In this document: one piece after another, positions 1 through 62,909 of the stretch
How the letters are laid out: each line of letters opens with the position of its first letter
How positions within the stretch are numbered: the stretch's first letter is position 1
NCBI GenBank assembly: GCA_964016885.1
Contig: OZ024740.1
Location: forward strand, 59,582,001 to 59,646,000
Direction: 5' to 3'
DNA: 64,000 bases
Source: Eledone cirrhosa
Taxonomy: Eukaryota
Translations under genes and position numbers: made by a program
Notes under the pieces: model-generated
Told to the model about the DNA's origin: nothing
Seen by the model: only the letters and a program-made list of their open reading frames with translations
The model's database searches: none

Positions 1-1491
1 AAGCCATGTATAAAGAAACAGTCAGCAAGGTTAGAATTAACAACGAATATAGTGAAGAGTTTAGCGTAAAAGTTGGTGTTCATCAGGGCTCCATTCTTAG
101 CCCCCTACTATTTATTATTGCCCTTCAGGCTATAACAAAGGAGTTCAAGACCGGCTGCCTATGAGAACTCCTATACGCAGATGATCTAACGCTCATAGCT
201 GAATCAATGGCTGAACTAGAGAAGAAATTCCAAACATGGAAGCATGGCCTAGAATCAAAAGGCCTTAAAATTAACCTGTCTAAGACTAAAGTTATAGTTT
301 GTAGGAAGGAAAATAGGGCACCGGTCCCATCCGGGAAATGGCCATGCTCAGTGTGTAGGAATGGAGTAGGCAGAAACTCCATTTTATGTCCCAAATGCAA
401 AGTATGGGTGCATAAAAGATGTAGTGGGATCACAGGTAAGCTAACTAAGAATATATGTGGCCGCTGCTCTGGTGCAATAAGTAGCAGCAAGTGCCCACAG
501 AATACTAGCTTATTCCATTGCACAGATGGTTCTACAGAAATAGTGGACACCCTCCGTTACTTGGGTGACAAAATCAGCAGTGGTGGAGGGTGCTCTGAAA
601 GTACAGTAGCTAGAGTCAGAACTGGATGGAAAAAGTTCAGAGAACTTATACCACTATTAGCCGCTAAAGGGTTCTCTCTAAAAATGAAAGGCAGGCTGTA
701 TGATGCCTGCATACGAACAGCAATGTTACATGGCAGTGAGACCTGGGCATTGTGTGCAGAGGATATACGCAGCCTGGAGAGGAACGAAGCTTGCATGCTC
801 CGCTGAATGTGTAATAGTAACATACGTGAACGGCAAAGCATAAACGAACTAAGGGAAAAATTAGAAATAAGAAGGATCAGATGTTGTTTACTCGAGAGAA
901 GACTACTTTGGTACGGTCAAGTGATGCGCATGAAAGCCGACAGCTGTATAAAAAAGTGCAGGGCAATAAAAATAGATGGTAACCACGGAGTAGGCAGACC
1001 CAGAAAAACCTGGGACGACCTGATAAATTCCGACCTCACACACTTACACCTCTCCAAGTCAATGTCACTGGACTGAGATTTCTGGCGCTACACAGTAATA
1101 CAGAAGACCCACCTTACCTAAGTACAAAGTAAAACCTACTACAATCAGTAGGCATCTCTAACAAAAATACACCTCTGTCCCACTACCCCCACCCCATCCA
1201 CACCACCCCTTTCAATGTCAAGTTATGTTGGTACCACAACATACAGTCCGAAACAAATGAGGTCATGTAGGTGTCATAACAAAAAAAAACACACAGTCCA
1301 CGCTGTAATGTGGCCATGTAGGTAACACGCTAAAAACCTCCCAGTCCACACTGTAAACGTGGTTGGTGTTAGGAAGTGCATCCAGCCGTAGAAAACCCGC
1401 CAGACAGTCCTAAGCGAGCAAAACAACCACTCTTGCCTCAAGTGGGAAAACTCCCGTCCAAACCCATGCAAGCGTGGAAGATGGCCGTTAA

Positions 1492-2404: not shown

Positions 2405-2446
<42 letters not shown>

Positions 2447-2487
2447 GATATTAACAAAGGGAAACTATATTTATAAAACCATATTTT

Positions 2488-2548
2488 TTTCATTATACAT
2501 ATTTCAAGGATACCAAGTTAAATTATGGTATGCCTTCATCAGACAAAA
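2488..2548 (-). ncRNA. Type-I hammerhead ribozyme fold in a (TA)n-adjacent mini-element (about 2446-2580)
   Basis: Minus strand: TTTTGT-CTGATGA-aggcATACCA..TGGTATcctt-GAAA-TATGTA-TA-ATGAAA; core intact, stem I pairs with G.U. Confidence 0.7.
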
Positions 2549-2584
2549 TACAATATATACCAGTTTTATAAATAAACATTGACA

Positions 2585-10273: not shown

Positions 10274-10342
10274 ATACTTGGGGAGGGTCATATTTGTGTA
10301 ATAATATTGCCAGAATTAAATATATATATATATGCATATATA

Positions 10343-13300
10343 GGGTTTCTCTTAGTAGCTTTTTCATGTCGTTAATATTATGATGTTCCCTGCTGTATTA
10401 GCGTTAAATTTTCCCTGCTGTATTAGCGATAAATTTTCGAGGGTTTCTCTTAGTAGCTTTTTCATGTCGTTAATATTATGATGTTCCCTGCTGTATTAGC
10501 GTTAAATTTTCCCTGCTGTATTAGCGATAAATTTTCGAGGGTTTCTCTTAGTAGCTTTTTCATGTCGTTAATATTATGATGTTCCCTGCTGTATTAGCGT
10601 TAAATTTTCCCTGCTGTATTAGCGATAAATTTTCGAGGGTTTCTCTTAGTAGCTTTTTCATGTCGTTAATATTATGATGTTCCCTGCTGTATTAGCGTTA
10701 AATTTTCCCTGCTGTATTAGCGATAAATTTTCGAGGGTTTCTCTTAGTAGCTTTTTCATGTCGTTAATATTATGATGTTCCCTGCTGTATTAGCGTTAAA
10801 TTTTCCCTGCTGTATTAGCGATAAATTTTCGAGGGTTTCTCTTAGTAGCTTTTTCATGTCGTTAATATTATGATGTTCCCTGCTGTATTAGCGTTAAATT
10901 TTCCCTGCTGTATTAGCGATAAATTTTCGAGGGTTTCTCTTAGTAGCTTTTTCATGTCGTTAATATTATGATGTTCCCTGCTGTATTAGCGTTAAATTTT
11001 CCCTGCTGTATTAGCGATAAATTTTCGAGGGTTTCTCTTAGTAGCTTTTTTCATGACGTTATTATTGTTAATTTTACTGATGTAGTATTAACTTATTAAC
11101 TTGGATATTTACCATGCGGTATTCTAATCCTATTGTATCTCTTTCAGTTATTTACCATGCGACCCTCAGTTCCTACCCCCCCCCCTCTATGCACTTCTTT
11201 AAGGCTTACTACCCTGTCTTTAACCTAATTCATTCAATCTGAAAATATTGAAGAGATAAGACACTTTGCCATTCTTCTCTGCTAAAATGTACCAGTAGAG
11301 CTGATTCAAATTTTCCCAGCCAGCCATCCACCTAATCTACGAAGGTATTTTAGCCTACATATTGTCGTTAATATTATGATGTTCCCTGCTGTATTAGCGT
11401 TAAATTTTCCCTGCTGTATTAGCGATAAATTTTCGAGGGTTTCTCTTAGTAGCTTTTTCATGTCGTTAATATTATGATGTTCCCTGCTGTATTAGCGTTA
11501 AATTTTCCCTGCTGTATTAGCGATAAATTTTCGAGGGTTTCTCTTAGTAGCTTTTTCATGTCGTTAATATTATGATGTTCCCTGCTGTATTAGCGTTAAA
11601 TTTTCCCTGCTGTATTAGCGATAAATTTTCGAGGGTTTCTCTTAGTAGCTTTTTCATGTCGTTAATATTATGATGTTCCCTGCTGTATTAGCGTTAAATT
11701 TTCCCTGCTGTATTAGCGATAAATTTTCGAGGGTTTCTCTTAGTAGCTTTTTCATGTCGTTAATATTATGATGTTCCCTGCTGTATTAGCGTTAAATTTT
11801 CCCTGCTGTATTAGCGATAAATTTTCGAGGGTTTCTCTTAGTAGCTTTTTTCATGACGTTATTATTGTTAATTTTACTGATGTAGTATTAACTTATTAAC
11901 TTGGATATTTACCATGCGGTATTCTAATCCTATTGTATCTCTTTCAGTTATTTACCATGCGACCCTCAGTTCCTACCCCCCCCCCTCTATGCACTTCTTT
12001 AAGGCTTACTACCCTGTCTTTAACCTAATTCATTCAATCTGAAAATATTGAAGAGATAAGACACTTTGCCATTCTTCTCTGCTAAAATGTACCAGTAGAG
12101 CTGATTCAAATTTTCCCAGCCAGCCATCCACCTAATCTACGAAGGTATTTTAGCCTACATATTGTCGTTAATATTATGATGTTCCCTGCTGTATTAGCGT
12201 TAAATTTTCCCTGCTGTATTAGCGATAAATTTTCGAGGGTTTCTCTTAGTAGCTTTTTCATGTCGTTAATATTATGATGTTCCCTGCTGTATTAGCGTTA
12301 AATTTTCCCTGCTGTATTAGCGATAAATTTTCGAGGGTTTCTCTTAGTAGCTTTTTCATGTCGTTAATATTATGATGTTCCCTGCTGTATTAGCGTTAAA
12401 TTTTCCCTGCTGTATTAGCGATAAATTTTCGAGGGTTTCTCTTAGTAGCTTTTTCATGTCGTTAATATTATGATGTTCCCTGCTGTATTAGCGTTAAATT
12501 TTCCCTGCTGTATTAGCGATAAATTTTCGAGGGTTTCTCTTAGTAGCTTTTTCATGTCGTTAATATTATGATGTTCCCTGCTGTATTAGCGTTAAATTTT
12601 CCCTGCTGTATTAGCGATAAATTTTCGAGGGTTTCTCTTAGTAGCTTTTTCATGTCGTTAATATTATGATGTTCCCTGCTGTATTAGCGTTAAATTTTCC
12701 CTGCTGTATTAGCGATAAATTTTCGAGGGTTTCTCTTAGTAGCTTTTTCATGTCGTTAATATTATGATGTTCCCTGCTGTATTAGCGTTAAATTTTCCCT
12801 GCTGTATTAGCGATAAATTTTCGAGGGTTTCTCTTAGTAGCTTTTTCATGTCGTTAATATTATGATGTTCCCTGCTGTATTAGCGTTAAATTTTCCCTGC
12901 TGTATTAGCGATAAATTTTCGAGGGTTTCTCTTAGTAGCTTTTTCATGTCGTTAATATTATGATGTTCCCTGCTGTATTAGCGTTAAATTTTCCCTGCTG
13001 TATTAGCGATAAATTTTCGAGGGTTTCTCTTAGTAGCTTTTTCATGTCGTTAATATTATGATGTTCCCTGCTGTATTAGCGTTAAATTTTCCCTGCTGTA
13101 TTAGCGATAAATTTTCGAGGGTTTCTCTTAGTAGCTTTTTCATGTCGTTAATATTATGATGTTCCCTGCTGTATTAGCGTTAAATTTTCCCTGCTGTATT
13201 AGCGATAAATTTTCGAGGGTTTCTCTTAGTAGCTTTTTCATGTCGTTAATATTATGATGTTCCCTGCTGTATTAGCGTTAAATTTTCCCTGCTGTATTAG

Positions 13301-14025
13301 CGATAAATTTTCGAGGGTTTCTCTTAGTAGCTTTTTCATGTCGTTAATATTATGATGTTCCCTGCTGTATTAGCGTTAAATTTTCCCTGCTGTATTAGCG
13401 ATAAATTTTCGAGGGTTTCTCTTAGTAGCTTTTTCATGTCGTTAATATTATGATGTTCCCTGCTGTATTAGCGTTAAATTTTCCCTGCTGTATTAGCGAT
13501 AAATTTTCGAGGGTTTCTCTTAGTAGCTTTTTCATGTCGTTAATATTATGATGTTCCCTGCTGTATTAGCGTTAAATTTTCCCTGCTGTATTAGCGATAA
13601 ATTTTCGAGGGTTTCTCTTAGTAGCTTTTTCATGTCGTTAATATTATGATGTTCCCTGCTGTATTAGCGTTAAATTTTCCCTGCTGTATTAGCGATAAAT
13701 TTTCGAGGGTTTCTCTTAGTAGCTTTTTCATGTCGTTAATATTATGATGTTCCCTGCTGTATTAGCGTTAAATTTTCCCTGCTGTATTAGCGATAAATTT
13801 TCGAGGGTTTCTCTTAGTAGCTTTTTCATGTCGTTAATATTATGATGTTCCCTGCTGTATTAGCGTTAAATTTTCCCTGCTGTATTAGCGATAAATTTTC
13901 GAGGGTTTCTCTTAGTAGCTTTTTCATGTCGTTAATATTATGATGTTCCCTGCTGTATTAGCGTTAAATTTTCCCTGCTGTATTAGCGATAAATTTTCGA
14001 GGGTTTCTCTTAGTAGCTTTTTTCA
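10343..14025 (+). repeat. 98-bp tandem array (about 31 units in 3 blocks of about 7, 5 and 19) split by two identical spacers of about 310 bp (800-bp period)
   Basis: Unit starts gggtttctcttagtagc at 10343, 10441, 10539 and so on; each unit has ttccctgctgtattagcg twice; spacers about 11053-11363 and 11853-12163. Confidence 0.95.
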
Positions 14026-14341
14026 TGACGTTATTATTGTTAATTTTACTGATGTAGTATTAACTTGGATATTTACCATGCGACCCTCAGTTCCTACCTC
14101 ACAATTTCCCTCCCCCCCACCCCCACACACCACCATAGTCTATTCGACCAATCAAACCTAGCATGCCATTTCCACTGCTGCTGCTGCTACTACCTGCCTA
14201 ACTAACTCTCTCCTCCTCTGGCGCATCCCAACACACCCTGCCATTACCCCACCACCACTGTCCTTCTAGCCCTCAATTTTCCCACCGTTATGGATGGATG
14301 AGCTGGGAATACACGAGCAACTCTGAATCAATAGATGAAAT

Positions 14342-17300
14342 ATGAATCTGCGAGCTACCAAGCACCCACGTGAAGCGCCAACCCAGAGACCCTCCCCTAC
14401 GAGTGTCGACAAATGCCCAAAACTCCGAGTTGGTACCATCAATGTAGGCTCAATGAAAGGAAGAGCAGGAGAAATCGTAGAAATGCTAGAGCGAAAGGAA
14501 GTTGATGTATGCTGTGTGCAAGAGACTAGATGGAGAGGAGGGTCTGCTAGAGTCCTTGTAGGAAAAAGCCAGTGCTACAAATTTTTCTGGGTGGGAAACG
14601 ACGATGGGATGGGTGGTGTAGGTATACTATTAGCTGACAAGTGGGTAGATAAAGTAATCTCAGTGTACAGGGTAAATGCAAGAATCATTAAACTCAGACT
14701 AGTCCTGAATAAGACAATTACCACAATAATATCAGCTTACGCACCCCAATCGGGGCTGCCAGACGAACTTAAGGATAGGTTTTACGAGTCCCTAATACAC
14801 ACTACTGCTCTAACAGACGACAAGGACTTCCTAATCATTGCAGGAGATTTTAACGGACACGTAGGTAAACACTGCGACGGCTTCAATAGAGTACATGGAG
14901 GCCATGGAGTTGGCACAAGGAATGAGGAAGGATTCAGACTTCTAGAATTCTGCGACGCCAATGACATGTCGATATGTAACACAAACTTTAAAAAACCCGA
15001 CAACCACCTGATCACCTATAGATCAGGGGAGCACTCTAGTCAGTTAGATTTTATTCTCATCAGAGGACGTGACAGATGGACGGTCGTAAACACAAAAGCC
15101 TTCCCTAGTGAGGAATGTACATCCCAACATAGCTTAGTTGTCAGCGACCTCACGGTCAGAACTAGACGAGCCCTGAAACAGAGGCCAACCTGGAGAAGAA
15201 AGATCTGGAAGCTGAAAGTCCCCTCAACCAGTAACAGATTTAAAGATATTTTACTCAACGCCTACGACAGTAAAGAAGAACAGATAGAGACATTTAACGT
15301 AGAAGAGAACTGGGAGTTCCTAAAAAATAACTTACTAGAGGCGACGGATGAGGTTTGTGGCTGGAGTAAGACCTCAAGCAGGAGGAGAGTGACTTGGTGG
15401 TGGAACAATAAAGTAGATGAAGCAGTCAAGGCCAAGAGACAGGCATGGAAAGAATGGAAGAACGGGGGGAGCAGGGTACATTACATAGAGACCAAGAGGG
15501 AAGCTAGGCGACAAGTATACTTAGCTAGGAGGGAAGCAGAGGATAGAAAATTCAAGCATGTTTTACAACGTGAGGACCAGAAACAGGAGGTATTCAAGAT
15601 TGCGAGGCAGTGTGTCAGAGATAGTTGTGATGTCATTGGAGAGAAGTGTATCCGGAATGATAAAGGTGAGCTTGCCCTCACAAGTGCTGAGAAGAAAGAT
15701 GCATGGAAGAGTCATTATGATAGATTACTAAATGAGGAGAATGCATGGGAAGAAGAGACCCTACCCCACGTAGACCCTATAGAGGGACCAGCAGTACAAG
15801 TCAGCGGCAGCGTAGTAAGTAAGGCAATCAGAGATATGAAGATAGGGAAGGCAACCGGTCCATCGGGTATAGCTGCCGAGATGCTGAAGGCATCTGGGTC
15901 TGTAGGTCACACTATAACCACACGTATCGTTAACCAGGTAATACTAGAGGGGGCCATACCAAAAGATTGGTGCAGTAGCATCATTGTCAACTGCTACAAA
16001 GGTAAAGGCGATGCACTAGATAGAGGAAACTATAGAGGTATAAAGTTGATGGACCAGGTCATGAAAGTAACAGAAAGAGTTATAGCACAGCTGATTAGGG
16101 ACCGGGTGAATATAGACGAGATGCAATTTGGGTTTGTTCCAGGGAAAGGCACCACTGATGCGCTCTTCCTTGTGAGGCAATTACAGGAAAAGTACCTAGC
16201 TAAAAGTAAGCCACTCTACTTGGCATTTGTCGACCTTGAGAAAGCCTTTGACAGAGTTCCACGTGCAGTAATCTGGTGGGCTCTTAGAAAACTAGGAGTA
16301 GATGAATGGCTTGTGAAAGCGGTACAAGCCATGTATAGGGGAGCAGTCAGCAAAGTTAGGATTGGCAATGAGTATAGCGAGGAATTTAGCGTACAGGTTG
16401 GGGTCCACCAGGGCTCTGTTCTTAGCCCTCTCCTGTTCATCATAGTCCTGCAGGCAATAACGGAGGAGTTTAAGACCGGATGCCCATGGGAACTCCTGTA
16501 TGCTGATGACCTCGCACTCATAGCTGAATCTATGGTAGAACTAGAGAATAAATTCCAAACCTGGAAGCAGGGACTAGAGAGAAAGGGCCTCAAAGTCAAC
16601 ATGACAAAGACTAAGGTCCTTATAAGTAGACGAGAAAACAGAACCCAGATCCCCTCAGGGAAATGGCCTTGCTCAGTATGTAGGAAAGGTGTAGGTAGGA
16701 ACTCCATTCTTTGCCCCAAATGCAAACAATGGGTACACAAGAGATGTAGCGGGATCTCAGGAAGCTTAATTAAGAATGTAGGATTCACATGCAGCAGCTG
16801 TGCTGAAACAGCAAGCAAACAGCCACAGGAAACAAGTACCACCAATCTCTGGGAGGGCCCTGTAGAAACAGTAGACAGCTTCTGCTACCTAGGTGACCGA
16901 ATTAGCAACGGAGGTGGGTGCTCAGAAAGTACAATAACTAGGGTAAGAACGAGATGGAAGAAGTTTAGGGAACTACTACCACTGCTAGCTGCAAAAGGCT
17001 TCTCCCTCAGAATGAAAGGCAGACTGTATGATGCGTGTATCCGAACAGCGATGTTGCATGGTAGTGAGACCTGGGCGCTGAAGGTGGAAGACTTACGTAG
17101 ATTAGAGAGAAACGAAGCCTGCATGCTCCGATGGATGTGTAACAGTAATATACGTGAACGACAAAGCATAAATGAATTGAGAGAGAGACTGAGCATAAGA
17201 GGAATCAAATGCTGCGTGCAGGAGAGGCGGTTACGCTGGTATGGACATGTGATGCGTATGAAGGATGACAGCTGCATAAAAAGGTGCAGAGCACTAGAAG

Positions 17301-17461
17301 TTGATGGAAACCGCGGAGTGGGGAGACCCAAGATGACTTGGGATGAGGTGATAAAAGCCGACCTTACCCAACTACACCTCTCAAAGTCAATGACACACGA
17401 CCGTGACTTCTGGCGTCACGCAGTAATACAGGGTACCCGACCTCCCATGGGTACATGCTGA
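14342..17461 (+). CDS. RTE retrotransposon polyprotein: APE endonuclease, reverse transcriptase with inserted C4HC3 (PHD-like) finger, 1039 aa
   Basis: APE motifs GTINVGS, CVQETRW, SAYAPQ, GDFNGH, SQH; RT motifs FVDLEKAFD, GVHQGSVLSP, YADD, FCYLG; uninterrupted ORF. Confidence 0.96.
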   Translation: MNLRATKHPREAPTQRPSPTSVDKCPKLRVGTINVGSMKGRAGEIVEMLERKEVDVCCVQETRWRGGSARVLVGKSQCYKFFWVGNDDGMGGVGILLADKWVDKVISVYRVNARIIKLRLVLNKTITTIISAYAPQSGLPDELKDRFYESLIHTTALTDDKDFLIIAGDFNGHVGKHCDGFNRVHGGHGVGTRNEEGFRLLEFCDANDMSICNTNFKKPDNHLITYRSGEHSSQLDFILIRGRDRWTVVNTKAFPSEECTSQHSLVVSDLTVRTRRALKQRPTWRRKIWKLKVPSTSNRFKDILLNAYDSKEEQIETFNVEENWEFLKNNLLEATDEVCGWSKTSSRRRVTWWWNNKVDEAVKAKRQAWKEWKNGGSRVHYIETKREARRQVYLARREAEDRKFKHVLQREDQKQEVFKIARQCVRDSCDVIGEKCIRNDKGELALTSAEKKDAWKSHYDRLLNEENAWEEETLPHVDPIEGPAVQVSGSVVSKAIRDMKIGKATGPSGIAAEMLKASGSVGHTITTRIVNQVILEGAIPKDWCSSIIVNCYKGKGDALDRGNYRGIKLMDQVMKVTERVIAQLIRDRVNIDEMQFGFVPGKGTTDALFLVRQLQEKYLAKSKPLYLAFVDLEKAFDRVPRAVIWWALRKLGVDEWLVKAVQAMYRGAVSKVRIGNEYSEEFSVQVGVHQGSVLSPLLFIIVLQAITEEFKTGCPWELLYADDLALIAESMVELENKFQTWKQGLERKGLKVNMTKTKVLISRRENRTQIPSGKWPCSVCRKGVGRNSILCPKCKQWVHKRCSGISGSLIKNVGFTCSSCAETASKQPQETSTTNLWEGPVETVDSFCYLGDRISNGGGCSESTITRVRTRWKKFRELLPLLAAKGFSLRMKGRLYDACIRTAMLHGSETWALKVEDLRRLERNEACMLRWMCNSNIRERQSINELRERLSIRGIKCCVQERRLRWYGHVMRMKDDSCIKRCRALEVDGNRGVGRPKMTWDEVIKADLTQLHLSKSMTHDRDFWRHAVIQGTRPPMGTC

Positions 17462-17802: not shown

Positions 17803-18068
17803 TATACTTGGGGAGGGTCATATTTGTGTAATAATATTGTCAGAATTAATAACAGAACACACTCACTGTTTCGTAACATTGAGGACCGAATAAATTAAAT
17901 TAACCAATATAAAAGACACAGAAGCGAAAACCAACCAAACAGTGAGTGTGTTCTGTTAGTAATTCTGGCAATATTATTACACAAATATGACCCTCCCCAA
18001 GTATAACAATATTTGTTTCGACACACGATTTCATATCAAAAACCTCGCAAAATTAATTCATCGCCGTT
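17803..18068. mobile_element. Fold-back mini-element (inverted arms of about 68 bp plus unpaired tail) in (TA)n
   Basis: tatacttggggagggtcatatttg...cactgttt (17803-17871) is inverted at about 17937-18006; 60-bp tail then (TA)n. Confidence 0.85.
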
Positions 18069-18083
18069 ATATATATATATATA

Positions 18084-25026: not shown

Positions 25027-25035
25027 CATATATAT

Positions 25036-25312
25036 GAAAATAGACGGTTTCAGCAAAAATTGACTATAGAAAATAGTCCAATATTAGGGCATATGAACTC
25101 CCATAATAAAAAAATGGGCATTGGCATGCAGTTGAATCGAAATAAGAAATGTGAGTTCAATTCCCACTCATGCTAATGTCCATTTTTCTGTCATAGCAGT
25201 TCATATGCCCTAATATTGGACTATTTTCTATTGTCAATTTACAGTAAAAGCTTCTAATTCTATTTTCGAAATGTTCAATCGTCACTGTATTCTAATTCCC
25301 ATATGCCTATAC
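25036..25312. mobile_element. Fold-back mini-element with tail, in (TA)n
   Basis: aaattgactatagaaaatagtccaatattagggcatatgaact is inverted at about 25198-25240. Confidence 0.8.
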
Positions 25313-27145: not shown

Positions 27146-27654
27146 ATAAAATGAGTTGGAAACTGAATTTCAATACAGAATTCAACACTAATGTACTGTA
27201 GTGTACAGAGTGTAAATTTCAAATAATAACTATTGTGGGTGGATGTTGGTGTAATGGTAACACATTGGTCTGGCAAACCAAAGATGTGGGTTTGTGTCCC
27301 ATGTACGTCAATACTCATCCTTTTTTTCCATTCAGAGGCTTTTTTTAAAATCCCAACTAACAGACTAATGTTATTTAGTCAAATACAACATAACCTCATG
27401 TTACTACTTATTTTCAAATTCGCTAGCTGTTTGTAAACAAATCCTGCTTTGTGTCTCCCTACTTATATACAATAACTATTATCCTCTGTGTCCTTCCTTT
27501 TAAAAGATGGTAGTGTATGTGATTTGGCAGAGATTTTACTGTTATTTGGCATGACTGGGGAATACTGGTCCTGTATGATCATGAATCCTTAGCATGGAAA
27601 AATATCAGAGATATAATCGAGATTTTAGATACATTCATTTTGGAAGCCTTCATT

Positions 27655-28796: not shown

Positions 28797-31700
28797 CATC
28801 ATCATCATCATCATCATCAGGTTTAGCGTCCGTGTTCCACGCTTGCATGGGTTTGGACGGGGGTTTTCCCACTTGAGGCAAGAGTGGTTGTCTTGCTCGC
28901 ATAGGACGGTCTGGCGGGTTTTCTACAGCTGGATGCCCTTTCTAACACCAACCACATTTACAGTGTGGGGCTGGGAGGTTTTTACCGTGTTGCCTACACG
29001 GCCACATTACAGCGTGGACTGTCTGGCGGATTTTCTACAGCTGGATGCCCTTCCTAACACCAACCACATTTACAGTGTGGGGCTGGGAGATTTTTACCGT
29101 GTTGCCTACACGGCCACATTACAGCGTGGACTGTCTGGCGGGTTTTCTACAGCTGGATGCCCTTCCTAACACCAACCACATTTACAGTGTGGGGCTGGGA
29201 GGTTTTTACAGTGTTACATACACAGCCACATTACAGCGTGGACTGTGTGTTTTTTTGTCGTGACACCTACACGATCTCATTTGTTTCGGCCTGGATGTTG
29301 TGGCACCAACATAACTTTACATTGAAAGGGGCGGTGTGGGTGGGGTGGAGGTGGTGGGACAGGGTGTGTTTTGATAGAGATGCCTACTGACTGTAGTAGG
29401 TTTTTACTTTGTATTTAGGTAAGGCGGGTCTTCTCTATTACTGAGTACCGCCAAAGGTCTCGGTCCAGTGACATTGTCTTGGAGAGGTGTAAGCGTATGA
29501 GGTCGGAATTTATCATGTCGTCCCAGGTTTTTCTGGGTCTGCCTACTCCGTGGCTACCGTCTATCTTTATTGCCCTGCACTTTGTTATACAGCTGTCGTC
29601 TTTCATGCGCATCACGTGACCGTACCAACGTAGCCTTCTCTCGAGTAAACAACATCTGATCCCTCTTATTTCTAATTTTTTCCTTAGATCGTTTATGCTT
29701 AGCCGTTCACGTATATTACTATTGCACATCCAGCGGAGCATGCAAGCTTCGTTCCTCTCTAGTCTGCGTATATCCTCTGCACACAATGCCCAGGTCTCAC
29801 TGCCATGCAGCATTGCTGTTCGTATGCAGGCATCGTATAACCTGCCTTTCATTTTTAGGGAGAACACTCTAGCGGCTAATAGTGGTATAAGCTCTCTGAA
29901 CTTTTTCCATCCCGTTCTGACTCTAGCTACTGTACTTTCAGAGCACCCTCCCCCACTGCTGATTTTGTCACCCAGGTAACGGAAGCTGTCCACTATTTAT
30001 ATAGAACCCTCTGCGCAATTGAAAGAGCTAGTATTTTGTGGGCACTTGCTGCTACTTATTGCACCAGAGCACCGGCCACATGTAAAATCTATGTTCTTAG
30101 TTAGCTTACCTGTGATCCCACTACATCTTTTATGCACCCATACTTTGCATTGGGGACATAAAATGGAGTTTCTACCTACGCCTTTCCTACACACTGAGCA
30201 TGGCCATTTCCCGGAAGGGACTGCCGCCTTATTTTCTTTCCTACAAACTAGAACTTTAGTCTTAGCCAGGTTAATTTTAAGGCCTTTTGATTCTAGGCCG
30301 TGCTTCCATGTTTGCAATTTCTTCTCTAGTTCGGTCATTGATTCAGCTATGAGCGTTAGATCATCTGCGTATAGGAGTTCCCATGGGCAGCCGGTCTTGA
30401 ACTCCTCTGTTATAGCCTGAAGGGCAATAATAAATAGTAGGGGACTAAGAACAGAGCCCTGATGGACACCAACTTTTACGCTAAACTCTTCACTATATTC
30501 GTTGTTAATTCTAACCTTGCTGACTGTTTCTTTATACATGGCTTGTATAGCTCTCACAAGCCATTCGTCAACACCTAGTTTTCTAAGAGCCCACCAGATA
30601 ATGGAACGGGGGACTCTGTCGAAGGCTTTCTCCAAGTCAACAAAAGCTAAGAATAGGGGTTTACTTTTAGCTAGGTACTTCTCCTGTCGTTGTCGTATAA
30701 TGAAAAGAGCGTCTGTGGTACTTTTGCCTGACACAAAACCAAACTGCATTTCATCTGGATCAATTCGCTCTCTGATTAGTTGCGCTATAACTTTTTCCGT
30801 GACCTTCATGACCTGGTCGATTAATTTAATGCCTCTATAGTTACACCTATCTAGGGCATCTCCTTTACCCTTGTAACAGTTAATGATGATGCTGCTATGC
30901 CAGTCCTTCGGAACATCCCCATTCTGTATGACTTGGTTTACTATCCGGGTGACCATGGTGTATCCCACCGTTCCAGAGGCTTTCAGCATCTCAGCAACTA
31001 TTTCCGAAGGCCCAGCTGCCTTACCTGTCTTCATATCTTTGATTGCCTTACTTATTATACTACCTTTGACTAACACTGCTGGTCCCTCTATTGGGTCGAT
31101 GTGGGGGAGACTGTCTTCCTCCAATTTGTTCTCCTCATTTAGAAGCCTTTCGTAGTGACACTTCCAAGCTACCTTCTTATCAGCGTCAGTGATGGCAAGT
31201 ATGCCATCATCATTAAGTACACACTTCTCCCCGACAATATCACGGTTTTCCTTGACACATTGCCTAGCAATCCTGAACACCTCACGTTTTTGGTCCTCAC
31301 GTTGTAGAACATGCTTGAACTTTCTTTCCTCTGCTTCCCTTCTTGCGAAGTACACTTGTCTCCTAGCTTCCCTCCTGGCCACTTGATAGTCTTCTCTACT
31401 TCCCCCATCCCGCCATACTTTCCAAGCCTGCTTTTTGGCCTTAATTGACTCCTCCACCTTACTGTTCCACCACCATGTTACTCTCCTCCTACTTACAGGC
31501 CTGCTCCAGCCACAGACTTCGTCTGCCGCCGTCAGCAGGTTTGCTTTCAGGAATTCCCACTGTTCCTCTATATTATACGACTCTAATTGCTCTTCCTTAC
31601 TCTCGAAAGCATCAAGTAATATGCTTTGAAATTTATTTCTGGCTATGGGGTCCTTTAGTTTCCATATTTTATCTCCTGAGGATAGTCCTCTTCTGTTGTC

Positions 31701-33272
31701 GAGTACGTCTCGTCCTGACTATGAGGTCGCTAATTATCAGTCTATGTTGAGAGGTGCATTGTTCATGGGGGAGGGATTTAGTGTTTACAACAGACACTCT
31801 GTCACGTCTTCTGGTAAGGATATAATCTACCTGGCTTGTGTGTTCCCCCGATCTATAGGTGATCAAGTGATTGTCTCGTTTTTTGAAGTTAGTGTTACAG
31901 ATAGTTAAGTAAATAACTTAACTATCTGTCACAGAATTCCAGGATTCTGGAGCCTTCCTCATTTCTAGTACCGAACCCATAACCTCCATGGATTCCGTCA
32001 TAGCCGTCACAATGTTGTCCAACGTGACCATTTAGGTCGCCTGCAATAATTATATAGTCACTGTCGGTTATTTGGGAGGTAGCGAGCATCAGTGTCTCAT
32101 AGAATCTGTCTTTTATAGCGCCGGGCAGTCCGGATTGGGGTGCGTACGCAGATATTACTGTCACCGTAGTTTTATTGAGGACAAGTCTTATTTTAATTAT
32201 TCTGTCGTTCACTCTATTTATGTCTATTATCTTATCTGCCCACTTTTCTGCTACCATGATTCCTACCCCACCCAGCCCATTGTCATTTCCCACCCAGAAA
32301 AGCTTATAGCATCGTACTTTACCCACGATGAATCTAGCAGACCCTCCCCTCCACCTGGTCTCTTGAATACAACAAACATCGACCTCCTTACATTAAAGCA
32401 TTTCTACAACCTCGTTAGAGCGACTCTTTAAGGTGCCTACATTCATGGTACCAACTCTGAAGTTTTGGATTGCGTTTGGAGGGTGGGAGCGGTGGGGCGC
32501 GGGGGGGGGGGGGGGGTAGGGGGGTAGGGGATGGGGTTATGTTAGCCATCCTCGGCCGAAACAAGGAGGAGTGCTTGCATTCTCGTCCACGAGGTGAATT
32601 TGTCTTTATCTTTAGCATTGTCGCTGAGCGTCCAGATTTTTCTCTCTTCAACTCTCCAGAATTCCGTAGTCCATCCATCATATCGAAAAGCAACCAGTTA
32701 CGCGATAATATGGGCCTCTGACTTATGATTGGTCCACGTAATAATGGTGGTGCGTGGGGGCGGGAGGGAGGGATGTTGGGTAGTTAGTGAGAATGTAAGG
32801 TTTAAGATAAGATCTCCGTATTTTGGGCATAATTTAACAATAAACGAAAATACAAGATTCGTTTTGTTTAAGAAAATACGATAGAGAAAATGCGGTGATA
32901 GGGAAAATATGATTTTAGAGAAAAAAAATATGATATAGAATGGTGAAAATATGACATAGAATGGTGATTGAATGAATGACTAATGGATTAGAATGGAGAG
33001 AAGAATCGAGAAAAATATTTGAACGTTACTTTATACCGAGGGAACAGCCATCCCAGAATAGCGAGTTGGCGATTTTGATTAATTTTGGTAGGGTTTATCT
33101 TATATGTATAGAGAGGGAGGGGGTGGGGACAGGAACCAGCATGATGTATGGGTAGGGGGTAGAAGATGGGATGGAGCAGAGAGGTTAAGAGTTTAAATAG
33201 GCACTCAAAGTTTTGCGTAAAACTTAGCAAGTTTAACAAAATATATTTAAAGGAATATATAAGAGTGATTTG
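28797..33272 (-). mobile_element. Near full-length RTE family B, disrupted, flanked by (TA)n on both sides
   Basis: ORF pieces 32415-32693, 31922-32326 (APE), 29997-31457 (RT and PHD) and 29415-29993; 112-bp triplication in 3' UTR; (ATC)n tail. Confidence 0.93.
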
Positions 33273-33910: not shown

Positions 33911-34945
33911 ATCATCATCATCATCATCATTATTTTACGTCCGCTTTTCCCTGCTTGCAAGAGTGAGACGGGTCTTATTCAGCACAGCATCTCTCTACTC
34001 GTCACGGTCCTTCGTCATCTCCACCGTGAGCTTCAATGATCTGAGGTCTGTTCTCACCACCTCCGCCCATGTTTTTCGTGGTCTACCTCTACCACATCTT
34101 CCTTCAACTGGCATTTCCTGGCACTTCTTCACCCATCGGTCATCCTCCATGCGCATCACATGTCCATACCACCACAGTCTCCTCTCCCATACACTACATT
34201 CTATCCATCTCACAGTTTCTCTCTCAACACATTTATGCTGGGTCATTCACGCACATTTACACTGCACATCCAACAGAGCATGCTTACCTCATTTCTCTCC
34301 AGCCGTCGCATATCCTCTGCAGTTGCTGCCCATGTCTCACTACCACGCAGCATCGCGCTCCTCACACAGGCATCATACAACCGGCCTTTCGTACGCAGGG
34401 AGAAACCCTTCTTCGTCAACAGAGGAAGCAGCTCCCTAAACTTCTTCCAACCCGTCCTTATTCTAGATACTATGGCCTCGGAACACCCTCCTCCCATGCT
34501 AATCTGATCTCCTAGGTACTGGAAGCTATCCACCACTTCTATAGCGCCCTCCTGCATTTGAAAAATGTGTCTATCAATGCGACTTCTACTGTCTAATTTC
34601 CCTGTACATCTACTGCATACATATTTCTCCCTACCTGTTAGTTTGCCTGCTATCCCGCTACATCTCTTGTGTACCCAGGATCTGCATTGTGTGCATTTTA
34701 TAGAATTTATGCCAGTTCCTTTTCTGCATATCGAACATGGCCATTTCCCTGACGGAATCAGGGTTTTGTCCTCTTTTCTACTCATCAACACTTTTGTCTT
34801 AGCTAGGTTCACTCTCAGTCCTGTTGATTCCAACTGCTGTTTCCATAGCCAGAATTTATTCTCTAGCTCCTCTACTGATTCTGCTATAAGAACCAGATCG
34901 TCAGCATGGAGAAGTTCCCATGGACAGCCAGTCTTAAACTCTATA
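33911..34945 (-). mobile_element. RTE family C, 5'-truncated
   Basis: ORFs 34243-34986 (HADD, same Cys finger) and 33995-34246; (ATC)n tail. Confidence 0.9.
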
Positions 34946-34950
34946 TATAT

Positions 34951-35173
34951 AACGAAGGAAGTGTGGTAAGGAACCAGGTGGACCATAATGCACTAGAGTA
35001 CTTAATACTTAGGGTAGTAGAGTGGGTAATAGGAAAATGTTCAAGACTCCGACGGCAGAGCTCGAGCCGTTTTGACGGCTATTTCTGGACTAAATTGTTA
35101 CAACGAATTTAGTCCAGAAATAGCCATCAAAACGGCTCGAGCTCTGCCGTCGGGGTCTTGAACATTTTCCTAT
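34951..35173. mobile_element. Tail-plus-fold-back mini-element in (TA)n
   Basis: Same leader as 22377; palindrome at 35029-35173. Confidence 0.88.
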
Positions 35174-48000: not shown

Positions 48001-49998
48001 GTAATGAAAGGGTTAATGACATAGACAGTGTCTTTCATTAGAAATAGGGTAATTAAAGGGTTAATGACATAGACAGTGTCTTTCATTAGAAATATGGTAA
48101 TGAAAGGATTAATGACATAGGCAATGTCTTTCATTAGAAATATGGTAATGAAAGGTTTAACGACATAGGCAGTGTCTTTTATTAGAAATATGGTAATGAA
48201 AGGTTTAACAACATAGGCAGTGTCTTTTATTAGAAATATGGTAATGAAAAGGTTAATGATAGGTAGTGTCTTTCATTAGAAATATGGTAATGTAAGGATT
48301 AACGACATAGGCAATGTCTTTCATTAGAAATATGGTAATGAAAGTGTTAATGACATAGGCAGTGTCTTTCATTAGAAATATGGTAATGAAAGCGTTAATG
48401 ACATAGGTAGTGTCTTTCATTAGAAATATGGTAATGAAAGGGTTAATGACATAGGCAGTGTCTTTCATTAGAAATATAGTAATGAAAAGGTTAATGATAG
48501 GTAGTGTCTTTCATTAGAAATAGGGTAATGAAAGGGTTAACGACATAGGCAGTGTCTTTCATTAGAAATATGGTAATGAGAGGGTTAATGACATAGACAG
48601 TGTCTTTCATTAGAAATATGGTAATGAAAGGGTTATTGACCTAGACAGTGTCTTTCATTAGAAATATGGTAATGAAAGGTTAATGACATAGGCAGTGTCT
48701 TTTAATAGAAATAGGGTAATGAAAGGGTTAATGACATAGGCAGTGTCTTTCATTAGAAATATGGTAATGAAAGCGTTAATGACATAGGTAGTGTCTTTCA
48801 TTAGAAATATGGTAATGAAAGGGTTAATGACATAGGCAGTGTCTTTCATTAGAAATATAGTAATGAAAAGGTTAATGATAGGTAGTGTCTTTCATTAGAA
48901 ATAGGGTAATGAAAGGGTTAACGACATAGGCAGTGTCTTTTATTAGAAATATTGTAATGAAAGGGTTAATGACATAGACACTGTCTTTCATTAGAAATAT
49001 GGTAATGAAAGGGTTATTGACCTAGACAGTGTCTTTCATTAGAAATATGGTAATGAAAGCGTTAATGACATAGGTAGTGTCTTTCATTAGAAATATGGTA
49101 ATGAAAGGGTTAATGACATAGGCAGTGTCTTTCATTAGAAATATAGTAATGAAAAGGTTAATGATAGGTAGTGTCTTTCATTAGAAATAGGGTAATGAAA
49201 GGGTTAACGACATAGGCAGTGTCTTTCATTAGAAATATGGTAATGAGAGGGTTAATGACATAGACAGTGTCTTTCATTAGAAATATGGTAATGAAAGGGT
49301 TATTGACCTAGACAGTGTCTTTCATTAGAAATATGGTAATGAAAGGTTAATGACATAGGCAGTGTCTTTTAATAGAAATAGGGTAATGAAAGGGTTAATG
49401 ACATAGGCAGTGTCTTTCATTAGAAATAGGGTAATGAAAGGGTTAACGACATAGGCAGTGTCTTTTATTAAAAATATGGTAATGAAAGGGTTAATGACAT
49501 AGACTGTGTCTTTCATTAGAAATATGGTAATGAAAGGGTTAACGACATAGGCAGTGTCTTTTATTAGAAATATTGTAATGAAAGGGTTAATGACATAGAC
49601 ACTGTCTTTCATTAGAAATATGGTAATGAAAGGGTTATTGACCTAGACAGTGTCTTTCATTAGAAATATGGTAATGAAAGGTTAATGACATAGGCAGTGT
49701 CTTTTAATAGAAATAGGGTAATGAAAGGGTTAATGACATAGGCAGTTTTTCATTAGAAATATGGTAATGAAAGGGTTAATGACATAGACACTGTCTTTCA
49801 TTAGAAATATGGTAATGAAAGAGTTAATGACATAGGCAGTTCTTTCATTAGAAATATGGTAATGAAAGGGTTAATGACATAGACACTGTCTTTCATTAGA
49901 AATATGGTAATGAAAGAGTTAATGACATAGGCAGTTCTTTCATGAGAAATATGGTAATGAAAGGGTTAATGACAAGAAATATTGTAATAAAAGGGTTA
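48001..49998. repeat. 48-bp minisatellite, about 41 diverged units with higher-order duplications
   Basis: Unit gaaagggttaatgacataggcagtgtctttcattagaaatatggtaat. Confidence 0.96.
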
Positions 49999-51294: not shown

Positions 51295-51337
<43 letters not shown>

Positions 51338-51339
51338 TA

Positions 51340-52131
51340 TAAAAATTTCGCTCTACAAGGCTGAATACAATAAATGTAATTTGAGTTTTTCAAATATTAA
51401 TAATAACATTCGATTCGTTTGCAATTATGCAAACAAGCCTCATGTTTAAAGCCATGTCAGTAGAATAAACCCTTCATTCTTACTCTTGTATTGGCATGTA
51501 AAGAGAATTGCAGACACTAACCAACAGATCTGCTGTTCTGTTTACATACCAACAGAAGAGTAAGAATGAAGGGTTCATTCTACTGACATGGCTTTAAAAA
51601 TGAGGCTTGTTTGCATAATTGCAAACGAATGAATGTTTCAAAAAAAAAGAAGAAAAGTGGAAAATAAAAGTAGAGGAAAAAAAGTAAAGTAGAAATAATT
51701 ATTAATATTCGAAAAACTCAGATTACATTTATTGTATTCAGCAATGTAGAGCAAAAAATTTTTTTTTTTATTACTTGAATGTGGCAAAACTGGCCATTTA
51801 TCGCTCGTATACAGGAAACTGACTGGCCAGTCTGCTGATATGCAAATCTGACTGATCAGCCAGTCTGCTAATATGCAAATCAGGCCGGTCAGTCACTGTA
51901 TATTTTAGAAAATAGCATATATTTTCACTAGCTCTGACAGTTGGCAGGTGAACAGTGAGCTGTACTGATGAAGGGTGATTCCCAGAAACATTAGTGTCTG
52001 CAGTTCTGTTTACATGCCAACACAAGAGCAAGAATGAAGGGTTCATTCTACTGACATGGCTTTAAAAATGAGGCTTGTTTGCATAATTGCAAACGAATCA
52101 AATATTATTATTAATAAACTCAGATTACATT
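51340..52131 (+). mobile_element. Composite pLTR-like element: inverted partial repeat, 468-bp unit, partial direct repeat; in (TA)n
   Basis: 51340-51520 is the reverse complement of about 51531-51760; 51999-52131 repeats the sequence from 51531 onward. Confidence 0.85.
51959..52004 (+). ncRNA. Type-I hammerhead ribozyme
   Basis: GCTGTA-CTGATGA-aGGGtgattCCCa-GAAA-CATTAGTG-TC-TGCAGT (GUC cleavage triplet). Confidence 0.85.
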
Positions 52132-52214
<83 letters not shown>

Positions 52215-52280
52215 ATATGATATGTAGATTTAAAACTGCACTATCCACAAGTGTTTTTTAGCCTTCATATCATGTTCTCC

Positions 52281-52351
52281 TGTTTTATCTGATGAAAACA
52301 CAAATATTATTGCATGATGATGTTTGTTTTTGAAATGCGCATAATAAAATA
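52281..52351 (+). ncRNA. Type-I hammerhead ribozyme in a TA-flanked insert of about 175 bp (52219-52393)
   Basis: TGTTTTAT-CTGATGA-AAAcACAAATATT..GATGTTTGTtTTT-GAAA-TGCGCA-TA-ATAAAATA. Confidence 0.82.
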
Positions 52352-52399
52352 CATGGAACTCCTTTAACCATCTTTTGATCTTATATTATATTTATATAT

Positions 52400-60427: not shown

Positions 60428-60681
60428 ATGGTAGAACACTGGAAGGTAATATCCGTAGTGGTAGAGCACTCAGTCCAAGGGACGAGTTAGGTAGAAGTGG
60501 TTACAAAACAGTTAGTTCACCATACCGAGAACAATTGTTTCACCTTAGCGGGTCCTCAGCTCGTAATGGACATGGTTATACGGAACAGCATAAAAAACCA
60601 TGTTCATTACGAGCTGAGGATCCGCTAAGGTTAAACAATTGTTCTCGGTATGGTGAACGAACTGTTGTGTAACCACTTCTA
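60428..60681. mobile_element. Tail-plus-fold-back mini-element carrying a hammerhead in each arm
   Basis: Palindrome at 60492-60681; leader with gagcactcagt. Confidence 0.88.
60526..60563 (-). ncRNA. Minimal type-I hammerhead ribozyme
   Basis: Minus strand: CGAG-CTGAGGA-cCCgctaaGGt-GAAA-CAATTG-TT-CTCG; opposite copy at 60610-60647 (+) has GAAA>TAAA. Confidence 0.78.
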
Positions 60682-60914
60682 TATATATATATAATCATCA
60701 TCATCATCATCATATATATATATATATCATCATCATCATCATTTTACGTCCGCTTTTCCCTGCTTGCAAGAGTGGGATGGGAACTGATACTGGCTTGATT
60801 TCTACAGCTGGATGCCCTTCCTAACACCAACCTCATTTACAGTGAGTGGTGGGTGCTTTTTTGCTGTGGCACCTCCACGACCACTTTGCAGTGGAATGAT
60901 AGGGACTGAGGTAC

Positions 60915-61056
60915 CTATCATCTCATTTCTACAGCTGAGTAAACTGGAACAATGTGAAATAAAGTCTCTTGCTCAAGGAAACAACACATCACCCGGTCCG
61001 AGAATTGAACTCACAACCTTTCGATTGCAAGGCCAATGCTCTAACCACTAAGCCAT
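60915..61056 (-). mobile_element. tRNA-derived CORE-like SINE (different family)
   Basis: TGGCTTAGTGGTTAGAGC...GAGTTCAATTC...CCTTGAGCAAG on the minus strand. Confidence 0.75.
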
Positions 61057-61073
61057 ATGCCTCCATATATATA

Positions 61074-61091
<18 letters not shown>

Positions 61092-61110
<19 letters not shown>

Positions 61111-62909
61111 GTAGATTGGTGCAGTAGCATCATTGTCAACTGCTACAAAGGTAAAGGCGATGCACTAGATAGAGGAAACTATAGAGGTATAAAGTTGATG
61201 GACCAGGTCATGAAAGTAACAGAAAGAGTTATAGCACAGCTGATTAGGGACCGGGTGAATATAGACGAGATGCAATTTGGGTTTGTACCAGGGAAAGGCA
61301 CCACTGATGCGCTCTTCCTTGTGAGGCAATTACAGGAAAAGTACCTAGCTAAAAGTAAGCCACTCTACTTGGCATTTGTCGACCTTGAGAAAGCCTTTGA
61401 CAGAGTTCCACGTGCAGTAATCTGGTGGGCTCTTAGAAAACTAGGAGTAGATGAATGGCTTGTGAAAGCGGTACAAGCCATGTATAGGGGAGCAGTCAGC
61501 AAAGTTAGGATTGGCAATGAGTATAGCGAGGAATTTAGCGTACAGGTTGGGGTCCACCAGGGCTCTGTTCTTAGCCCTCTCCTGTTCATCATAGTCCTGC
61601 AGGCAATAACGGAGGAGTTTAAGACCGGATGCCCATGGGAACTCCTGTATGCTGATGACCTCGCACTCATAGCTGAATCTATGGTAGAACTAGAGAATAA
61701 ATTCCAAACCTGGAAGCAGGGACTAGAGAGAAAGGGCCTCAAAGTCAACATGACAAAGACTAAGGTCCTTATAAGTAGACGAGAAAACAGAACCCAGATC
61801 CCCTCAGGGAAATGGCCTTGCTCAGTATGTAGGAAAGGTGTAGGTAGGAACTCCATTCTTTGCCCCAAATGCAAACAATGGGTACACAAGAGATGTAGCG
61901 GGATCTCAGGAAGCTTAATTAAGAATGTAGGATTCACATGCAGCAGCTGTGCTGAAACAGCAAGCAAACAGCCACAGGAAACAAGTACCACCAATCTCTG
62001 GGAGGGCCCTGTAGAAACAGTAGACAGCTTCTGCTACCTAGGTGACCGAATTAGCAACGGAGGTGGGTGCTCAGAAAGTACAATAACTAGGGTAAGAACG
62101 GGATGGAAGAAGTTTAGGGAACTACTACCACTGCTAGCTGCAAAAGGCTTCTCCCTCAGAATGAAAGGCAGACTGTATGATGCGTGTATCCGAACAGCGA
62201 TGTTGCATGGTAGTGAGACCTGGGCGCTGAAGGTGGAAGACTTACGTAGATTAGAGAGAAACGAAGCCTGCATGCTCTGATGGATGTGTAACAGTAATAT
62301 ACGTGAACGACAAAGCATAAATGAATTGAGAGAGAGACTGAGCATAAGAGGAATCAAATGCTGCGTGCAGGAGAGGCGGTTACGCTGGTATGGACATGTG
62401 ATGCGTATGAAGGATGACAGCTGCATAAAAAGGTGCAGAGCACTAGAAGTTGATGGAAACCGCGGAGTGGGGAGACCCAAGATGACTTGGGATGAGGTGA
62501 TAAAAGCCGACCTTACCCAACTACACCTCTCAAAGTCAATGACACACGACCGTGACTTCTGGCGTCACGCAGTAATACAGGGTACCCGACCTCCCATGGG
62601 TACATGCTGAAGCATATAAACAATATGCCCCCCCCCCCCCACCGCAAGGTGGTCGTGGAGGTGCCACGGCAAAAAAGCACCCAGCCCACACTGTAAAGTG
62701 GACGTGTAGGCGCCACGAAAAAGCACCCAGCACTCACTGTAAATGAGGTTGGTGTTAGGAAGGGCATCCAGCTGTAGAAATCAAGCCAGATCAGTTCCTG
62801 TATGAGCAAGGCATGGTCAGCCGACCAGACACTGCCCACAACAGGACAACCCGTCTAACCCATGCTAGCGTGGAAGAACGGACGTAAAACGGTGATGATG
62901 ATGATGATG

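What the first reader, a model, noticed from the sequence alone, without database searches (positions are those of the whole stretch)
51340..52131. Linking locus: fold-back and tandem repeat whose unit starts at the ribozyme cleavage site
Seen: the hammerhead at 51959-52004 would cut after GUC (51998). The sequence after the cut (TGCAGTTCTGTTTACA...) also begins the upstream copy at 51531 (TGCTGTTCTGTTTACA...), giving a 468-nt cut-to-cut unit. An inverted copy (51340-51520) extends just into stem III (GCAGACACTAA). Inference: the inserted cDNA came from a ribozyme-processed RNA, and the hairpin elements and hammerhead elements in this window belong to one class.
Basis: partly seen in the sequence, partly recalled or inferred. 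Interest (0 to 1): 0.8.

Follow-up and report, generated by a model that had tools for sequence, protein, structure and literature searches.

The report
Penelope-type retrozyme copied from cut RNA
This is one insertion of a non-coding, hammerhead-bearing repeat present in thousands of copies, laid out like a known Penelope-type retrotransposon insertion, and across the genome its copies most often begin exactly at the predicted ribozyme cut, which likely means that self-cut RNA is one of the templates copied back into DNA.

Summary
The anatomy is real: (TA)n, an inverted arm (51340-51520), a direct partial tandem (51531-52131) with one type I hammerhead (cut predicted after 51998), then (TA)n. 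It is one insertion of a ~440-nt non-coding family; a 30-mer has 2,066 exact matches in the genome. Partial tandem, inverted 5'-truncated copy, a tail at one end and microsatellite targets are the published Penelope-like element (PLE) signature, so this is a non-autonomous PLE / non-LTR retrozyme.

The commonest 5' junction near the ribozyme is the cut itself (15 of 53 scripted, 4.5 expected; 34 of 145 by eye). A second hammerhead family shows no such peak.

Limits: most copies read through the ribozyme (767 matches against 237 junction-type matches). At this locus the start is only compatible with the cut (-2 to +5), the inverted arm crosses it, and the 468-nt unit includes a 59-nt insert. 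Also, 80 of 85 fold-back insertions pair one short with one long 3' end, and the two arms share alleles. No parent element or RNA data were found.

The parts
51297..51339 (.). (TA)n microsatellite, left target flank
51340..51520 (-). Inverted 5'-truncated arm: runs from 8 nt upstream of the cut site to the long ('tail-plus') 3' end
   Evidence: (I1, I2, I5)
51521..51528 (.). 8-nt filler at the head-to-head junction, origin not determined
51531..51771 (+). Direct arm, upstream partial unit from about the cut site (+1; range -2 to +5) to the long 3' end
   Evidence: (D6)
51638..51697 (+). 59-nt purine-rich insert at the family's SINE-insertion hot spot; its 3' end resembles the SINE's 3' end
51772..51956 (+). 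Upstream part of the unit, with a 33-nt internal repeat (51818-51883) whose copy number likely sets unit length
   Evidence: (D14)
51957..52006 (+). Type I hammerhead ribozyme; cut predicted after 51998; self-complementary stem III strand (predicted dimer-activated); A/A mismatch at the base of stem II; stem I extends to 51941-52020
51999..52131 (+). Second partial unit, from the cut site to the short ('tail-minus') 3' end
52132..52223 (.). (TA)n microsatellite, right target flank

Best explanation
The locus is one insertion of a non-coding ~440-nt hammerhead-bearing repeat, likely moved by the reverse transcriptase and GIY-YIG endonuclease of an autonomous Penelope-like element, with its direct arm likely ending where the ribozyme had cut the RNA. 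Shown: the layout, the (TA)n targets, two fixed 3' ends about 38 nt apart, one of each per fold-back insertion, shared alleles between arms, and a peak of 5' junctions at the cut. Inferred: a PLE protein cuts (TA)n on both strands and primes twice, once at each internal start site, on the same RNA or on RNAs of one source locus. Each cDNA runs toward the 5' end and stops at random, or runs off at a 5' end made by ribozyme cleavage, with up to about 20 nt then trimmed. The two cDNAs are joined head to head, often through short palindromes. Cleavage is partial, as a monomer is predicted to fold into an inactive hairpin and to need a partner, so many cDNAs pass through an uncut ribozyme. Here the direct arm would come from a linear RNA of more than one unit, cut at the upstream ribozyme and uncut at the downstream one.
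For: Family size: 2,066 exact matches of a 30-mer, 0 in the control. PLE layout: 110 of 193 insertions are head-to-head (60 of 88 in the positional sample). 80 of 85 classifiable ones pair a short with a long 3' end, 42.5 expected, p about 1e-18; 25 more had an end outside both classes. 230 of 258 outer 3' ends abut (TA)n. Adjacent arms agree at 328 of 377 polymorphic cells, against 59% shuffled (max 68% in 2,000 shuffles). Junction peak: +1 in 15 of 53 scripted rows (60 rows, 7 read-through dropped) against 4.5 expected, p 2e-5, and 34 of 145 by eye against 12.3, p 4e-8. Positional sample: 28 ends at +1..+20, 10 at -60..-1. Of 37 distinct TA-flanked copies read by eye from the first 100 rows, 35 start at +1..+15 and 2 upstream. 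No peak at the base of stem I near +22 (by eye). A second family gives no peak at its own cut, so the method does not create one. Monomer MFE pairs the core with stem III (-16.0 vs -9.8 kcal/mol for the active fold) and the stem III strand self-pairs at -8.8. The genome holds RT+GIY-YIG ORFs, some with their own hammerheads. Layout as described in PMC8557442; two internal RT start sites and extension of both strands as shown in vitro in PMC11167929.
Against: No autonomous element sharing this family's sequence was found among 35 GIY-YIG loci examined, of 150 scored and 10,597 candidates, so the mobiliser is inferred. Most copies read through the ribozyme (767 vs 237 matches; the second filter passes only about half of true junctions). 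At this locus the +1 start is ambiguous. Among 37 arms longer than one unit only 1 scores exactly +1 (6 score -3..+1, counting the window's own), so the partly cut multimer template is weakly supported. Stem II has an A/A mismatch where G-C is usual. For the anole element PAc, cleavage was not needed for insertion in vitro and no reads ended at the cut (PMC11167929). The larger tally is by eye, and a few rows are duplicated loci.
Confidence: 0.72

Rival explanations
1. Same PLE-type element, but the junction excess comes from reverse transcriptase stalling in the long stem I hairpin (3' strand +1..+22) and from microhomology at the palindrome spanning the cut site; cleavage plays no part.
For: The whole +1..+20 zone is enriched and matches the stem I strand. 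About a dozen junctions are fold-backs centred on the 4-6-nt palindrome at -1..+5. A weaker hairpin at +33 also collects fold-backs. PAc uses uncut RNA in vitro (PMC11167929).
Against: About 15 of the +1 junctions abut host or microsatellite DNA with no inverted arm (by eye). There is no peak at the hairpin entry near +22. Counts fall right upstream of +1 (3, 2, 1 at -3, -4, -5). +1 is 34 of 77 among +1..+5, against 21% expected.
Confidence: 0.15
2. The template is a re-ligated circular monomer copied by rolling-circle reverse transcription, as proposed for non-LTR retrozymes; the +1 class comes from circles not yet closed or re-opened.
For: The unit is circularly permuted: most copies long enough run into the previous unit's 3' end or an inverted arm, with no shared outside sequence seen. 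Read-through of the ribozyme is common. Circles are reported for such repeats in coral, mussel and axolotl (PMC7229834). Tandem neighbours share alleles (118 of 137).
Against: A circle gives no reason to stop at +1 on a second pass, yet this locus and L118 do so or nearly so. Only 1 of 37 multi-unit arms crosses the unit junction twice. Allele sharing is equally expected from one source locus. This reading can coexist with the best explanation for the read-through class.
Confidence: 0.25
3. The fold-back and tandem arose after insertion by DNA-level events (hairpin repair, slippage, gene conversion) on a SINE- or MITE-like repeat.
For: Palindromic junctions and arm similarity can arise by DNA repair; flanking (TA)n is unstable.
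Against: One short plus one long 3' end in 80 of 85 insertions cannot come from mirroring one arm. Fixed 3' ends with variable 5' ends point to reverse transcription. The arms are not terminal inverted repeats of fixed length.
Confidence: 0.03

Closest known systems
Penelope-like elements (PLE) with pLTR hammerheads (PMC8557442; PMC4209133)
   Same: 5' truncation, partial tandem, inverted 5'-truncated copy adjacent at the 5' end, 30-40-bp tail at one end only, hammerhead with palindromic stem III and an extra base before stem II, microsatellite targets.
   Different: No RT/GIY-YIG ORF in this family, and no parent found. Stem I is long (8 bp plus extension), unlike the 4-5 bp of minimal PLE hammerheads.
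Metazoan non-LTR retrozymes (PMC7229834; bioRxiv 10.64898/2026.07.22.740005)
   Same: Non-coding, low-GC (35-37%) unit of about 350-470 nt with a type I hammerhead, head-to-tail permuted; proposed to be non-autonomous PLE derivatives.
   Different: Mostly dispersed partial tandems and fold-backs, not long arrays. This locus has one complete ribozyme and so fails the two-ribozyme 'active' criterion of the preprint. Circular RNA was not testable.
PAc (Poseidon) of Anolis carolinensis (PMC11167929)
   Same: Two internal reverse-transcription start sites downstream of the hammerhead that define the tail; AT-rich targets; both strands cut and extended.
   Different: PAc insertion did not need cleavage in vitro and no reads ended at the cut; here genomic 5' junctions peak at the cut.
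R2 and other non-LTR elements with 5' HDV-like ribozymes (mentioned in PMC4209133; detail recalled)
   Same: [quoted passage not shown]
   Different: Different ribozyme class and enzyme; no tail, no paired 3' ends; here cleavage marks only a minority of copies.

Membership tests
Penelope-like element (non-autonomous) | Fixed 3' ends, variable 5' truncation | tested here: met
Penelope-like element (non-autonomous) | Partial tandem forming a pLTR | tested here: met
   37 arms cross the unit junction; window 51531-52131
Penelope-like element (non-autonomous) | Inverted 5'-truncated copy adjacent at the 5' end | tested here: met
   110 of 193 insertions; 60 of 88 in the positional sample
Penelope-like element (non-autonomous) | 30-40-bp tail at one end only | tested here: met
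   Two ends about 38 nt apart; 80 of 85 pair short with long
Penelope-like element (non-autonomous) | Hammerhead motif in the repeat | tested here: met
   core intact in 55 of 72 copies matched by the pattern
Penelope-like element (non-autonomous) | Sequence shared with an autonomous PLE of the same genome | tested here: inconclusive
   None among 35 GIY-YIG loci, only chance-neighbour copies of the family; small sample
Penelope-like element (autonomous) | Own RT + GIY-YIG ORF | tested here: not met
   Longest ATG ORF in the unit is 51 aa (+) or 79 aa (-); long copies run into the previous unit
Non-LTR retrozyme | Type I hammerhead in a 150-450-bp, low-GC, non-coding head-to-tail unit | tested here: met
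   Unit mostly 431-443 nt (range 352-470), GC 35-37%
Non-LTR retrozyme | Two or more consecutive units with a complete hammerhead | tested here: inconclusive
   Not met at this locus; met at L011, L013 and L088
Non-LTR retrozyme | Self-cleavage in vitro | not testable with these tools
   Indirect only: junction peak at the predicted cut
Non-LTR retrozyme | Expressed as linear and circular unit-length RNA | not testable with these tools
   No RNA holder listed
Non-LTR retrozyme | Loop 1-loop 2 tertiary contact of canonical hammerheads | not tested
   Only an extended stem I with internal loops was seen

The most novel reading that the evidence does not exclude
This family is a genomic record of the Penelope insertion mechanism. 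Each fold-back insertion is made by two primings, one at each internal start site, on one RNA. Hammerhead cleavage works in the germ line and sets a hard 5' end on a share of templates, which is in vivo evidence that an animal PLE/retrozyme hammerhead takes part in transposition, in a family-specific way and against the in vitro result for PAc.
Probability: 0.55. Interest if true: 0.65.

Novelty: new member of a known kind. Interest (0 to 1): 0.47.

Why it matters
Whether PLE hammerheads do anything in transposition is open: the 2014 description says in vivo evidence was lacking (PMC4209133), and the one reconstituted PLE inserted uncut RNA just as well (PMC11167929). A single-base peak of genomic junctions at the predicted cut, absent from a second family in the same genome, is a cheap readout of ribozyme activity that can be run on any PLE or retrozyme family. 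The near-strict short-plus-long end rule with shared alleles constrains how inverted copies and tails form, and it ties a retrozyme-type element to PLE machinery by insertion signature and not only by phylogeny. The locus by itself is ordinary for its class.

Tried and rejected
Rfam at gathering score found only a tRNA-like match, not the hammerhead. Parent search: 35 GIY-YIG loci shared no terminal sequence with the family; L071, with two ribozymes 2,480 nt apart, is two separate insertions with no ORF between. RNA: no RNA holder listed; contigs of runs X1 and X4 only confirm the family and its polymorphic sites. The long ORFs in the window are endonuclease/RT/PHD LINE-type, not PLE, and were set aside as mobiliser for lack of a link. 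One search wasted rows on overlapping matches (37 distinct loci in 100 rows). One search was diluted by read-through copies with small indels (60 junction rows of 100 listed, 528 matches in all). The L277 ORF has no Pfam hit at E 0.01 and only a weak match to L198 (E 0.007); its PLE identity rests on Atlas neighbours and a tblastn match next to a GIY-YIG locus. The scan's earlier findings held nothing. Rejected: MITE/terminal inverted repeat reading, a cut-to-cut monomer insertion, and 468 nt as the family unit.

Full report
Observation. A type I hammerhead lies at 51957-52006 with the cut predicted after 51998, and its stem I extends to a long hairpin (z -4.26). The 105 nt after the cut recur 468 nt upstream at 95% identity. 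An inverted arm at 51340-51520 reaches 8 nt past the cut into stem III. Both outer ends sit in (TA)n. The upstream copy matches to -2 with a mismatch at +4, so its start is compatible with the cut but not fixed to it. The 468 nt include a 59-nt insert absent from the other two arms.

Family. The window lies in a 3.0-Gb genome. A 181-nt query gave 656 candidates, of which 40 were scored at 94-100% identity. A 30-mer has 2,066 exact matches and 0 in the control. I took the first 100 listed places on contig C1 as a positional sample. Positions below are relative to the cut (+1 = first base after it; 3' ends in L013 numbering). Copies end at two sites, about +136-143 and +178-181, and their 5' ends vary. 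Most copies long enough run into the previous unit or an inverted arm, and no shared outside sequence was seen. The unit is 352-470 nt, mostly 431-443 (one 651-nt spacing aside), with GC 35-37% and no long ORF.

Insertion anatomy. One search used 189 distinct loci of 239, a mix of positional and junction-selected sets. Of 193 insertions, 110 are head-to-head (60 of 88 in the positional set). Of these 110, 85 had both outer ends in one of the two classes, and 80 paired a short with a long end (42.5 expected, p about 1e-18). The window obeys the rule: long end left, short end right. 230 of 258 outer 3' ends abut (TA)n. Adjacent arms agree at 328 of 377 cells over seven polymorphic sites, against a shuffled mean of 59% and maximum of 68%. 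PMC8557442 (passages read) describes this layout for PLEs: partial tandems, an inverted 5'-truncated copy, and a 30-40-bp tail often at one end only. PMC11167929 (parts 1-2 of 4) shows that the tail lies between two internal RT start sites and that both target strands are cut and extended.

In the positional sample of 100, truncation risk per base was 0.0069 at +21..+70, 0.0234 at +1..+20 and 0.0044 at -60..-1 (p 6e-6 and 1e-6); some of these ends are blurred by fold-back alignments. For single-base resolution I searched for copies with the downstream core but non-reference bases upstream of the ribozyme's GAAA (75 of 75 and 100 of 127 rows listed). I dropped 30 rows by eye (read-through with small indels, internal deletions, one event seen twice, ambiguous). 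The 145 left gave: +5 11, +4 17, +3 10, +2 5, +1 34, -1 15, -2 7, -3 3, -4 2, -5 1, -6 6, -7 4, -8 4, -9 6, -10 5, -11 8, -12 3, -13 4. This tally is by eye and kept in my notes. The scripted subset (60 loci, 7 dropped) gave +1 in 15 of 53. A simulation with uniform junctions, real flanks and 5% divergence expects 8.5% at +1, giving p 2e-5 and 4e-8. About 15 of the +1 junctions abut host or microsatellite DNA directly. Downstream, (60 junction rows of 100 listed, by eye) gave 23 at +11..+20, 12 at +21..+30 and 25 at +31..+45, with no peak at the base of stem I. As a control, the family at window 60428-60682 shows no peak at its own predicted cut: +1 in 2 of 27 scripted rows, and roughly even counts by eye over 100 of 472 rows.

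Against over-reading. 767 matches keep the upstream ribozyme sequence, against 237 junction-type matches whose filter passes about half of true junctions. So most copies that reach this region were made from uncut or re-ligated RNA, as were the inverted arm and second unit here. Folding offers a reason: the monomer's best fold pairs the core with stem III, and the stem III strand is self-complementary, as in dimer-activated hammerheads (PMC4209133, parts 1-2 of 4 read). Among 37 arms longer than a unit, only one scores exactly +1 and six score -3..+1, so the partly cut linear multimer is the likelier template for this locus but is not shown.

Mobiliser. The genome has 10,597 GIY-YIG candidates (150 scored), with RT+GIY-YIG ORFs and their own hammerheads. 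None of 35 loci examined shares terminal sequence with this family. PLE mobilisation is inferred from the insertion signature.

One class? A stem I threshold of 5 bp found two more hammerheads of other families in the window, at +52289 and -2542. The fold-back at 60428-60682 carries a minimal hammerhead, has TA flanks and a longer arm, and in L277 follows a 452-aa ORF piece whose Atlas neighbours carry HTH_animal, RVT_1 and GIY-YIG families (no Pfam hit).

Known versus new. It works like a PLE insertion and meets the non-autonomous criteria I could test, except a shown parent. It also fits non-LTR retrozymes (PMC7229834, passages; bioRxiv 10.64898/2026.07.22.740005, part 1 of 5 and passages), which that preprint derives from PLEs. 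Five answered searches of the open library showed no paper mapping genomic PLE or retrozyme 5' junctions to the hammerhead cut, or quantifying the short-long pairing. Verdict: a new member of a known kind, with a real and testable mechanistic signal; interest 0.47.

Noticed in passing
Family position +108/109 (window 51638-51697; L037, L060, L066, L078, L079, L090, L094, L111, L116 and others): A tRNA-derived SINE sits at one fixed AT-rich spot in 16 of 139 segments of the positional sample, with a constant 3' end and variable 5' truncation, sometimes with target duplication and sometimes deletion. It may be a target hot spot or template switching.
   Followed up: partly
window 52222-52385 (+): A second hammerhead family (core at 52289, long stem II, palindromic stem III) directly beside the finding, TA-flanked, with many copies at 83-99% in fetched loci.
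   Followed up: partly
window 2446-2580 (-): A third hammerhead family (core at 2542 on the minus strand), TA-flanked, with relatives in other loci.
   Followed up: partly
window 60428-60682; L277, L279: Fold-back that is the hammerhead-bearing 3' end of a PLE family with an RT/GIY-YIG-like ORF; two 3' ends about 60 nt apart; no junction peak at its cut.
   Followed up: yes
window 17806-18070 and 25035-25310: Two more head-to-head fold-backs with one longer arm and TA-rich flanks; the first has many relatives in fetched loci, the second none. Not tested for hammerheads or ORFs.
   Followed up: partly
L198, L199, L202, L205, L206, L210, L276: Several hammerheads in this genome have a U/U or A/A mismatch at the base of stem II where G-C is usual.
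   Followed up: no
window 14339-17461 (+), 29997-31718 (-), 61045-62280 (+), 34243-34992 (-), 165-806 (+): LINE-type ORFs with an RT domain followed by a PHD finger, the longest 1,040 aa with an endonuclease domain.
   Followed up: no
window 10342-14038 and 48001-49974: Tandem arrays of 98 nt (37 copies) and 48 nt (41 copies); the first lies just upstream of the 1,040-aa ORF.
   Followed up: no
window 27242-27310 (+): tRNA-like match (Rfam RF00005, 48 bits), possibly a SINE head or tRNA pseudogene.
   Followed up: no
L195, L196, L197: Long open PLE-type ORFs of 938, 844 and 1,096 aa with short 3' regions ending at (TA)n and no hammerhead found by my scan.
   Followed up: no
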